Of a stretch of 64,000 bases of DNA, positions 37,353 through 59,780 are shown piece after piece. The DNA is from Octopus vulgaris (Eukaryota), in the NCBI GenBank assembly GCA_951406725.2, contig OX597843.1:8494001-8558000 (forward strand), read 5' to 3'. The notes below the pieces were generated by a model that was given only the letters and a program-made list of their open reading frames with translations, searched no databases and was not told the DNA's origin. The position numbers and the translations under genes were made by a program. Within the stretch, counting starts at the first letter, position 1; each line of letters starts with the position of its first letter.

Positions 37353-37405
37353 GTTTGTCTGCCTGAAGAACCTCTGCAAGCAGAGGTGAAACTTGTAGTA
37401 GCAAC
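37353..37405 (+). ncRNA. Type I hammerhead ribozyme
   Basis: ctgc CTGAAGA acctctgc aa gcagaggt GAAA c tt GTA gtag: intact core, strong stem II, minimal stem III, GUA triplet. Confidence 0.75.
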
Positions 37406-45970: not shown

Positions 45971-46346
45971 TTTGTTTGTTTGTTTGTTTGTTGAGCGAAA
46001 AGTCTTCGTCCCAGAACTCGCAAGATGGGAGAAGTCCGAAACGTGGTCCTTTGCTATTCGTAAGACCCGCAGAAGAGTGAGCAGGTCAACCCCCGACACC
46101 GAGAGCATCGACGGATGGATCCAGGCTCAGCGGTTGCGTAGGAAGTCGGGGCCAAGAAACAGGAAGAAAGAGTGAGAGAAAGTTGGAGCAAAAGAGTACA
46201 ACAGGGGTCGCCACCAACCCCTGCTGCAGCCTCGTGGAGCTTTAGGTGTTTTCGCTCAATAAACACACAACGCCCGGTCTGGGAATCGAAACCGCGATCC
46301 TATGACCGCGAGTCCGCTGCCCTAACCACTGGGCCATTGCGCCTCC
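45971..46346 (-). mobile_element. tRNA-derived SINE family C, full length
   Basis: Head ggaggcgcaatggcccagtggttagggc (A box), ggtttcgattccc (B box), (aaac)n tail. Confidence 0.85.
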
Positions 46347-46355
46347 ACTTCTGAG

Positions 46356-46505
46356 TTCAACAGGGGTCGCCACCACCCTCTGCCGGAGCCTCGTGGTGCT
46401 TTAGGTGCTTTTGCTCAATAAACACACACAACACCCGGTCTGGGAATCGAAACCGCGATCCTCCGTCCGCGAGTCCGTTGCCCTAACCACTGGGCCATTG
46501 CGCCT
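46356..46505 (-). mobile_element. SINE family C, duplicated head
   Basis: Near-identical to 46200-46346. Confidence 0.85.
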
Positions 46506-46596
46506 ACACTGCTGCTGCTGCTGCTGCATATATGATCGTTGTTGTTGTTGCATTTAAAGTTCCTGTTGACGCAGTTATACTTTTTGCCGTTCTTTC

Positions 46597-47210
46597 CGTG
46601 GCTTAGTGGTTCGGGTGTTGGACGCACGATCGTAAGGTCATGAGTTCAATTCCCGGCGACGCATTGCGTCCTTGAGCAAGACACTTTATTTTACGTTCCT
46701 CCAGTTCACTCACCTGGCCAAAATGAGTAGTACCTGTAATTCAAACGGGTCATCCTTGTCACATTCTGAGTCACCCTGAAACTCCCTGAAAACTATGTTA
46801 AGGGTACACGTGTTTGTGGTGTACTCAGCCACTTACACGATAATTGACCGGATCAATTTGAACCACTGTCGTCATCGTCGTAACCGACGGAATACCAGCT
46901 TTTTCTGAGGATACATAACTTAGTGGTCAGGGTATTCTGCTCCTGATCACAAGGTCGTACGTTCGATACCTGGCGGCGCTTTGTGCCTCTAAACAAGACA
47001 CTTTGGTTCACGGTCCGCAAATCAATTCAGCTGGCAAAACTAAGTTGTCCCTGTATTTTAAAGGGCCAGCCTTGTCACATTTGTGAATCATTCTCAGAGT
47101 ACGTGTGTCTGTGGAGTACTCAGTCACTTGCACGTTAATTTCACGAACAGGCTGATCCGTTGATCGGATCAGCTGGAACTATCATCATCGCAACTGACGG
47201 AGTACCAGTC
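46597..47210 (+). mobile_element. Two tandem tRNA-derived SINE family B copies
   Basis: gtggcttagtggtt...gagttcaattccc...ccttgagcaagacactt; second diverged copy from ~46915; both end gacgga.taccag. Confidence 0.8.
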
Positions 47211-47221
47211 ATATACACGTA

Positions 47222-47330
<109 letters not shown>

Positions 47331-47398
47331 CTGTATGTATGTATATATAAATGAAAGAATGGAGTTGAACGACGAATTAACAAAATTCCTTTATTTTA

Positions 47399-47481
47399 TT
47401 TTCGACATATGTTTCGAAGGCTGCATATTCCTAATTTCGAAGGAATAAGGGGTGCATTATGCTGCCTTCTCATCAGGAAAA
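47399..47481 (-). ncRNA. Type I hammerhead ribozyme with extended stem II
   Basis: ttttc CTGATGA gaaggc...gccttc GAAA catat GTC gaaaa: canonical core, GUC triplet, all three stems. Confidence 0.85.
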
Positions 47482-47554
47482 GTAAGGAACTTATGTCAGC
47501 ATCAAGATGCACAAAAACTTTTAGATGACTGCCAACACGGAGTCCATAGCGATA

Positions 47555-47594
<40 letters not shown>

Positions 47595-47682
47595 AATGAG
47601 GTAATCAGATCGGATGGTTCATATTTGTAGATATTACCTCATTTTTTCTAATATATAATACCTGTACATCATCTCCAAACCT

Positions 47683-58980: not shown

Positions 58981-59249
58981 TCATATATATATATATAAAA
59001 AAGCATGGCTGTGTGGTAAGAAGCTTGCTTCACAACCATATGGCTCTGGGTTCAGTTCCAATGCGCAGCACCTTAGGTAAATGTCTTCTACTATAGGTTC
59101 AGAATATTTTGACCGAATTTAGCTGGATCAATCACTGAAGTGTTATAGTGATCGAATAAATAGATTTTTATTTTTTGTCTTTTCCTCGAGCGAGGTCAGA
59201 CTCATGCCAAGTCTCATCTCTGTGTTTATCATTACCATTCAAGTATTTT

Positions 59250-59780
59250 TCCAGACTCAAGAGATTAAGACTCTATTCCTTAGAGCGTAGGCGAGAAAGA
59301 TATGCCATAATATACACCTGGAAGATCCTGGAAGGACTTGTCCCAAACTTTGGCATCGAGAGTTACGCAAATGCCAGAACTGGGCGCCACTGCATAGTGC
59401 CAAGGACTCCAAATTTGCCATCAAGATGTAGGACAAGATACTGTGATAGCCTGGGCTTCCGAAGCCCACAGCTCTTCAATATCCTCCCGAAAAACCTGAG
59501 GGACCTGCATGGGGTGGATGCAGATGTCTTTAAAATAAAACTGGACCCCTTCCTGTCAGGTGTCCCAGACGAACCAACTTCACGGCAGGAAGTGCAGATG
59601 AGGACAGCTGCATCGAACTCTCTCATGCACCAAATGTTAATTGCTAAAAAGCATTCGTGAAGTAAAATCATATAGCAACACCAAATGGCGGTGCCCCGGC
59701 ATGGCCACAGCTCGTGAGCTGAAACTAGATAAAATAAAATAAAATAAAATAAAATAAAATAAAATAAAATAAAATAAATA
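59250..59780 (+). mobile_element. 5'-truncated CR1-group LINE: ORF2 C-terminus, 3' UTR, (TAAAA)n tail
   Basis: RLKRLRLYSLERRRERYAIIYTWKIL...LFNILP...FKIKLDPFL resembles the post-RT region of CR1-group ORF2; stop at 59660. Confidence 0.85.

What the first reader, a model, noticed from the sequence alone, without database searches (positions are those of the whole stretch)
47399..47481. Canonical HHR with a large structured insertion in stem II
Best candidate for activity: exact CUGAUGA, GAAA and GUC, 5-bp stem I, G-C-closed stem II and ACAUAUGU stem III. The stem II loop of about 40 nt contains a further hairpin (tattcct tcgaaatt aggaata) and alternative gca/tgc pairings, which is unusual for a minimal Penelope-type HHR and could be a tertiary-contact or regulatory module.
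Basis: partly seen in the sequence, partly recalled or inferred. Interest (0 to 1): 0.7.

Follow-up and report, generated by a model that had tools for sequence, protein, structure and literature searches.

The report
Long-armed hammerhead of a Penelope-like transposon
This is a broken, lone end-piece of a jumping gene with thousands of copies in this animal genome; it carries a predicted self-cutting RNA of a known kind whose unusually long side arm is shared by the whole family, so it is not a special regulatory insert of this copy.

Summary
The motif is real: a type I hammerhead on the minus strand, predicted cut after 47404. It lies in a 208-bp, 5'-truncated lone copy (47347-47554, between TA repeats) of the 3' end of a Penelope-like element closest to the Hydra clade (telomerase-like RT, C-terminal GIY-YIG-type region). 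The 54-nt stem II domain is not an insertion in this copy: 3,901 genomic copies have a long arm, 43 a short one, and all 14 subfamilies keep 53-59 nt. Published Hydra hammerheads have 3-10-nt loops, but a spike-moss element already has a 35-nt structured loop, other families in this genome have 30-43-nt arms, and this scan noted long stem II before on other DNA. 'Best candidate for activity' is unsupported: stem III is a short palindrome, no partner is near, the copy has no ORF. One lead: a 3-bp stem I-flank/arm pairing covaries (top of 9,723 helices, but family-wise p 0.07-0.11, not replicated in a second family). Cleavage untested.

The parts
47347..47554 (-). 5'-truncated lone fragment of the 3' UTR of a Hydra-related Penelope-like element (-150 to +57 relative to the predicted cut)
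   Evidence: 97-99% identical to many dispersed copies; boundaries; relatives continue into an RT + endonuclease ORF about 750 nt upstream of the core
47399..47481 (-). type I hammerhead ribozyme motif
   Evidence: sequence, descriptor scan
47477..47481 (-). stem I, 5' strand
   Evidence: pairs with 47403-47399; inner 4 pairs kept in 49-50 of 50 copies
47470..47476 (-). catalytic core CUGAUGA
   Evidence: 6 of 7 positions invariant across 14 subfamilies, the variable one is N7
47416..47469 (-). 54-nt stem II domain: 6-bp base helix, 1x1 mismatch, 5-bp middle helix (47462-47458 / 47427-47423), asymmetric loop, top hairpin
   Evidence: 53-59 nt in all 14 subfamily majorities
   Evidence: pair probability 0.99 here, >= 0.5 in 12 of 50 copies; no two-sided change
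47430..47450 (-). family register of the top hairpin (47450-47448 / 47432-47430 and 47446-47442 / 47438-47434), weakened in this subfamily by a G-to-A change at 47437
   Evidence: favoured in 36 of 50 copies; pair 47449-47431 is C-G in 26, U-A in 19, U-G in 5 of 50
47405..47412 (-). palindromic stem III (2 bp + tetraloop as monomer, 8 bp as dimer)
   Evidence: variants in the family stay self-pairing
47403..47404 (-). predicted cleavage site after C17 of GUC
   Evidence: hammerhead consensus; cleavage not tested
47464..47483 (-). candidate 3-bp contact between 47483-47481 (5' flank of stem I) and 47466-47464 (arm); only 2 of 3 pairs possible in this copy
   Evidence: suggestive only
47383..47492 (-). 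distal extension of stem I (47492-47485 with 47390-47383) beyond an internal loop
   Evidence: 92% of cells paired, no two-sided change
47211..47346 (.). TA/TG microsatellite at the element's 3' end (target site)
   Evidence: family 3' ends run into (TA)n
47555..47588 (.). TA microsatellite at the 5' truncation point

Best explanation
This is a lone, 5'-truncated end-piece of a Penelope-like retrotransposon, and the motif is that family's 3'-UTR hammerhead, which in a full element transcript likely cuts after GUC slowly and likely only with help from a second copy (pairing through the stem III palindrome) or from the element's protein; the long stem II arm is an inherited, conserved part of the family's RNA, not a regulatory insert of this copy. 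Shown: motif, family, ORF linkage, arm conserved in length and lower helices, two fixed 3' ends, insertion into (TA)n. Inferred: cleavage itself, dependence on a partner or protein, that integration uses uncut RNA (copies span the site), that the arm serves as a folding or protein-binding scaffold, and that the window copy is inert.
For: Dispersed family: 2,228 first-look candidates, 48 matches listed; 3,901 intact long-arm motifs, control 0. Core lies 467-798 nt downstream of the ORF end in sense orientation in most loci with the endonuclease region. ORF up to 896 codons; model pLDDT 79.8, top eight fold matches all telomerase RT (E 6e-10 to 6e-8); GIY-YIG Pfam hit weak in homologs (best E 3.7e-4). 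Inverted 5'-truncated partner copies and two 3' ends, about +57 (21 of 38) and about +207 (17 of 38), match the PLE tail described in PMC8557442 and PMC11167929. None of 37 5' starts lies at the cut (nearest -24, +9). Arm interior 40% invariant across 14 subfamilies against 10% for upstream UTR; short-arm copies 43 of 3,944, mostly one-off deletions. Literature: metazoan PLE hammerheads with palindromic stem III cleave weakly and as dimers (PMC4209133); the anole PLE hammerhead cleaved only with protein and was not needed for insertion in vitro (PMC11167929).
Against: Direct tandem copies that would allow a cis dimer are rare: 0 of 22 long loci, 0 same-strand against 11 inverted pairs within 5 kb among the first 100 places; one same-strand pair 1.1 kb apart is. 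Invertebrate hammerheads with a 2-bp stem III and tetraloop can cleave as monomers (0.1-0.8 per min, PMC7229834 passages), so dimer dependence is not assured. The region downstream of the ribozyme is as conserved as the arm (41% invariant), so conservation of the arm need not be about cleavage. The family's own ORF has no Pfam RT or GIY-YIG hit and lacks the Hydra CxCX5C linker (0 of 65). No cleavage or strand-specific RNA data.
Confidence: 0.6

Rival explanations
1. The arm carries the tertiary contact: stem II is really 3 bp, and the next three bases (47466-47464) pair with the three bases 5' of a 4-bp stem I (47483-47481), a pseudoknot of the kind that aligns stems I and II in other hammerheads; this would let younger subfamilies cut as monomers.
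For: Found by RNAalifold unprompted; all 3 pairs change on both sides, covariation score 0.61 against 0.36 shuffled (0 of 500), while the competing stem II extension scores 0.29 against 0.25 (40 of 500). On the tree the pairs pass through G-U intermediates. It ranks first of 9,723 possible 3-bp helices among 14 subfamily majorities. Geometry resembles the loop I / stem II-strand pseudoknot in PMC3088659 (section 7 and passages).
Against: Family-wise p 0.067 (column shuffle) and 0.11 (block shuffle). Only 1 of 3 pairs in the oldest subfamilies, 2 of 3 in subfamily D, G and in the window's own. No matching register in a second long-arm family (31 motifs; best 71% paired). Three pairs is short; the tested pseudoknot lost over 100-fold when cut to two pairs (PMC3088659).
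Confidence: 0.2
2. The arm is a neutral passenger: it sits outside the core, was inherited from the founder and persists because only a few master copies reproduce.
For: Top hairpin register shifts between subfamilies; few compensatory changes in the whole arm (5 of 21 pairs); arms of 30-43 nt with unrelated sequence occur in other families of this genome.
Against: Length held at 53-59 nt and helices kept over a lineage whose upstream UTR is only 10% invariant; fold z below -2 in 11 of 14 subfamily majorities; no deletion variant amplified.
Confidence: 0.12
3. A regulatory switch: the same triplet extends a local hairpin (stem I 5' strand with G8-A9 and the stem II 5' strand) that traps the core during transcription until protein or a partner refolds it.
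For: This hairpin is in the RNAalifold consensus and has probability about 0.26 in the window copy with flanks.
Confidence: 0.08

Closest known systems
Hydra-clade Penelope-like elements and their hammerheads (Craig et al. 2021, PMC8557442; e.g. Hydra-1_Obim)
   Same: C-terminal endonuclease, DKT motif, R-W motif, CxxC and CxH around E and N, (TA)n targets, one sense type I hammerhead near the 3' end with a short stem III.
   Different: Stem II domain 53-59 nt against at most 24 nt in the 26 listed Hydra rows; CxCX5C linker absent (0 of 65 copies; present in 93 of 99 nearest homologs) and replaced by a roughly 120-150-residue Asn-rich stretch; element longer than 3 kb; not the published Hydra-1_Obim family (different ribozyme).
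Metazoan PLE hammerheads with small palindromic helix III (Cervera and De la Pena 2014, PMC4209133)
   Same: Type I, 4-5-bp helix I, longer than usual helix II, G10.1-C11.1, palindromic helix III, mostly lone truncated copies, pairs on opposite strands.
   Different: No extra base between A9 and G10.1; helix II domain much longer than the 6-8 bp described.
PLE-X1_sMoe hammerhead of spike moss (File S2 of PMC8557442)
   Same: PLE hammerhead whose stem II (9 bp) encloses a 35-nt loop with an inner hairpin, about 53 nt in all.
   Different: Plant, endonuclease-less, rDNA-targeting element; unrelated sequence; marked there as deviating from the canonical structure.
Pseudoknotted hammerheads (Perreault et al. 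2011, PMC3088659)
   Same: Possible base-paired contact between the flank of stem I and bases following a short stem II.
   Different: Here 3 bp only, statistically borderline, untested; published cases are mostly 4 bp or more.

Membership tests
Type I hammerhead ribozyme | Core CUGANGA / GAAA / NUH in order around three stems, stem I open | tested here: met
   core and stem III 86-92% invariant over 14 subfamilies
Type I hammerhead ribozyme | Match to an Rfam hammerhead model | tested here: inconclusive
   no hit; a 42-nt loop probably costs the score, not checked
Type I hammerhead ribozyme | Self-cleavage after C17 | not testable with these tools
   only assembled contigs were available
Type I hammerhead ribozyme | [quoted passage not shown] | tested here: inconclusive
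   3-bp candidate, family-wise p 0.07-0.11
Penelope-like element (EN+) | Telomerase-like reverse transcriptase | tested here: met
   fold search top hits TERT; YRDD-type motif in 99 of 100 aligned proteins; in relatives of the window copy, not in the window
Penelope-like element (EN+) | C-terminal GIY-YIG endonuclease | tested here: inconclusive
   Y..YIG..R..H..E..N pattern by eye, invariant Y779 Y792 G794 E862; Pfam GIY-YIG below cut-off in 3 of 6 homologs, none in the family's ORF; separate fold of the domain failed (pLDDT 29)
Penelope-like element (EN+) | Hammerhead in the terminal region, inverted 5'-truncated partner copies, optional 3' tail | tested here: met
   the optional tail here is about 150 nt, longer than the 30-40 nt described
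Penelope-like element (EN+) | Direct partial-tandem copies forming pLTRs | tested here: inconclusive
   0 of 22 long loci; no copy with an intact 5' end was identified
Hydra clade | DKT in place of DKG; RWK motif | tested here: met
   DK[TS] in 100 of 100, R-W invariant; this family reads RWL rather than RWK
Hydra clade | No CCHH; CxxC and CxH around E and N | tested here: met
   (CxxCxxE 100 of 100, CxH 97 of 100)
Hydra clade | CxCX5C linker before the endonuclease | tested here: not met
   0 of 65 distinct linkers of this family; 93 of 99 homologs have it. Filed as Hydra-related, not as a typical member
Hydra clade | Insertion into (TA)n | tested here: met
Hydra clade | Placement in an RT tree with the published Hydra references | not tested
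   reference proteins were seen only in the paper's supplement and compared by eye
Non-LTR retrozyme | Short non-coding tandem units each with a hammerhead | tested here: not met
   lone copy, no tandem array at 47347-47554; family linked to an ORF

The most novel reading that the evidence does not exclude
A Hydra-related Penelope lineage evolved, within its long stem II arm, a three-way architecture with a short pseudoknot to the stem I flank that lets its hammerhead cut as a single copy, explaining success without tandem pLTRs; the same lineage lost the zinc-finger linker thought to steer (TA)n targeting yet still targets (TA)n.
Probability: 0.2. Interest if true: 0.55.

Novelty: new variant of a known kind. 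Interest (0 to 1): 0.3.

Why it matters
Hammerheads in Penelope-like elements are known, and their role is still open. This family offers a natural series of 14 subfamilies with stepwise changes in and around the ribozyme, so the role of a long stem II arm and of a possible stem I-stem II contact can be tested with natural variants. Long arms also mean that Rfam models (no hit here) and short-loop descriptors can undercount such ribozymes. The loss of the CxCX5C linker with (TA)n targeting kept argues against that linker being required for the targeting. The window copy itself is an ordinary truncated remnant.

Tried and rejected
Rfam at gathering score and at E <= 10: no hammerhead; the microRNA hits are TA-repeat artefacts. 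Pfam on the family's ORFs: nothing above cut-off; PDB sequence searches with one protein and with a 100-sequence profile: 0 hits. Single-sequence fold of the endonuclease region: unusable. Sequencing runs: no RNA holder listed (RNA status is a guess); contigs of four runs cover family sequence but cannot show strand, level or ends, and show no bridging of the window copy's flanks - no evidence either way. Retrozyme array: rejected, no tandem units. Copy-specific insertion: rejected. Replication of the 3-bp contact in a second long-arm family: failed. 3' ends at the cut site were not testable, because the sample and the filter required sequence downstream of the cut. Lunse et al. 2017 on small PLE hammerheads is not held; it and the supplements of PMC4209133 and PMC3088659, which I did not see, may already show long-arm variants. 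Literature searches for a long stem II in PLE or octopus hammerheads found no description of this family.

Full report
Observation. On the minus strand 47481-47399 reads as a type I hammerhead: 5-bp stem I, CUGAUGA, a 6-bp stem II closed by G-C and enclosing 42 nt, GAAA, the palindrome ACAUAUGU and GUC with C17 at 47404. A descriptor scan of both strands found only this full motif and one weak plus-strand candidate. The 54-nt stem II domain folds better than all 200 shuffles (z -3.63). Rfam does not detect it.

Context. The motif lies in a 208-bp piece, 47347-47554, between TA repeats. A DNA search of the own genome (2.8 Gb; probably an octopus, my inference from size, contig number and a nearest named protein from Argonauta) gave 2,228 candidates, 40 scored, 48 matches, the best at 97-99%. 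Longer copies continue upstream into an ORF that ends about 750 nt before the core. Open frames reach 896 codons. A model from a 100-sequence alignment matches telomerase RT best. Motifs fit the Hydra clade of Penelope-like elements as defined in PMC8557442 (section 11 read): DKT, R-W, CxxC and CxH, (TA)n targets. The CxCX5C linker is missing in 0 of 65 distinct linkers of this family but present in 93 of 99 homologs, so I call the family Hydra-related. In 30 loci picked by a downstream pattern (first 30 of 710 matches), 3' ends fall in two groups, about +57 (21 of 38) and about +207 (17 of 38) from the cut; 9 of 37 5' starts fall at -151 to -141 and none at +1. The window copy is the short-end type truncated at -150. 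It differs from 34 close matches at three bases, one private (47463, a CpG-type change). No second copy lies in the window.

Is the arm an insertion? No. A pattern with intact core and a 40-64-nt gap has 3,901 matches, control 0; the same pattern with a 10-39-nt gap has 43, mostly one-off deletions and about five of another short-armed family. A tree from flanks of 84 copies (of 153 collected; those without homologous upstream UTR were dropped) is ladder-like. I grouped 73 of these into 14 subfamilies by eye; all majorities keep an arm of 53-59 nt, 40% invariant against 10% for upstream UTR and 41% for the downstream 50 nt.

Structure of the arm. I aligned 50 of 92 distinct copies, leaving out most near-identical young copies and most with large indels. 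It has no two-sided change and one C-G pair is broken in 27 of 50. The family register has a C-G / U-A / U-G pair in 26 / 19 / 5 copies, and the lower helices are kept.

A lead. RNAalifold paired the three bases 5' of stem I with positions 10.4-10.6. All three pairs change on both sides (score 0.61 against 0.36 shuffled), more than the competing stem II extension, and the helix ranks first of 9,723 among the subfamily majorities. But the family-wise p is 0.067-0.11, the oldest subfamilies keep 1 of 3 pairs and the window's subfamily 2 of 3, and a second long-arm family shows no such register. It resembles the pseudoknots of PMC3088659 (section 7 and passages). I give it 0.2.

How it likely works. 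Shown: anatomy, family, linkage, ends. Inferred: cleavage after C17 in element transcripts, slow and assisted. Stem III costs +2.4 kcal/mol as a hairpin and gains -7.0 as a two-copy duplex; the active monomer fold is about 0.2% of the ensemble here and 0.002-3.5% in the subfamily majorities. PMC4209133 (parts 1-2 of 4 read) found such PLE motifs weak and dimer-dependent; PMC11167929 (parts 1-2 of 4) found a PLE hammerhead that needed the element's protein and was dispensable for insertion. Against simple dimer dependence: direct tandems are rare here (0 of 22 long loci), and PMC7229834 (passages) reports monomer cleavage of invertebrate hammerheads with a comparable stem III. The window copy has no ORF and no partner, and nothing shows it is transcribed.

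Comparison and novelty. File S2 of PMC8557442 lists 26 Hydra-clade hammerhead rows with loop 2 of 3-10 nt, so this arm is more than twice as long; the same file lists a spike-moss PLE hammerhead with a 35-nt structured loop. In this genome a pattern that excludes this family finds 251 other motifs with long arms, control 4; the 30 examined have arms of 30-43 nt in several unrelated families and none matched this ORF within 1.5 kb. Earlier notes of this scan report long stem II hammerheads in Penelope-type repeats on other DNA; a look-up by this sequence found nothing. Also seen: PMC6765202 passages, bioRxiv 10.64898/2026.07.22.740005 part 1 of 5; Lunse et al. 2017 only as a citation.

Verdict. 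Observation confirmed, interpretation partly supported. An undescribed long-armed variant of a known ribozyme-retroelement pairing, seen here in a truncated remnant. Interest 0.3.

Noticed in passing
L048:1742-4429 (-) and 65 distinct linkers in fetched loci: The family's ORF lacks the CxCX5C zinc-finger linker that 93 of 99 nearest homologs have, replaced by an Asn-rich stretch, yet copies still sit in (TA)n; the linker had been proposed to steer this targeting.
   Followed up: partly
own genome, (L106-L135, L186-L205): 251 further hammerhead-like motifs with long stem II arms (30-43 nt in the 30 examined) in several unrelated families; their host elements were not identified; a cluster of at least eight lies at G000:C2:212.108-212.119 Mb.
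   Followed up: partly
family copies: Two fixed 3' ends about 150 nt apart (+57 and about +207 from the cut), often one on each arm of an inverted pair; a 5' truncation hot spot at -151 to -141.
   Followed up: partly
window 47581-47657: An inverted repeat with arms of about 25 bp next to the element, itself between TA repeats and covered by multi-copy contigs; may be a tiny fold-back insertion of another repeat.
   Followed up: no
window 46200-46514: Two direct copies about 160 nt apart of a GC-richer repeat unit (90-92% alike), also found in other loci; looks SINE-like.
   Followed up: no
window 46602-47140: Two diverged direct copies (about 68-70%) 317 nt apart.
   Followed up: no
window 59160-59660 (-): Open frame resembling the C-terminal end of a LINE reverse transcriptase, similar by eye to a frame in L033.
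   Followed up: no
window near 37363 (+): Weak hammerhead-like candidate (4-bp stem I, 8-bp stem II, 2-bp stem III) from the descriptor scan; not checked for copies.
   Followed up: no
own genome: About five motifs with the same stem III but a short 15-18-nt stem II; possibly a related short-armed family that could root the origin of the long arm.
   Followed up: no
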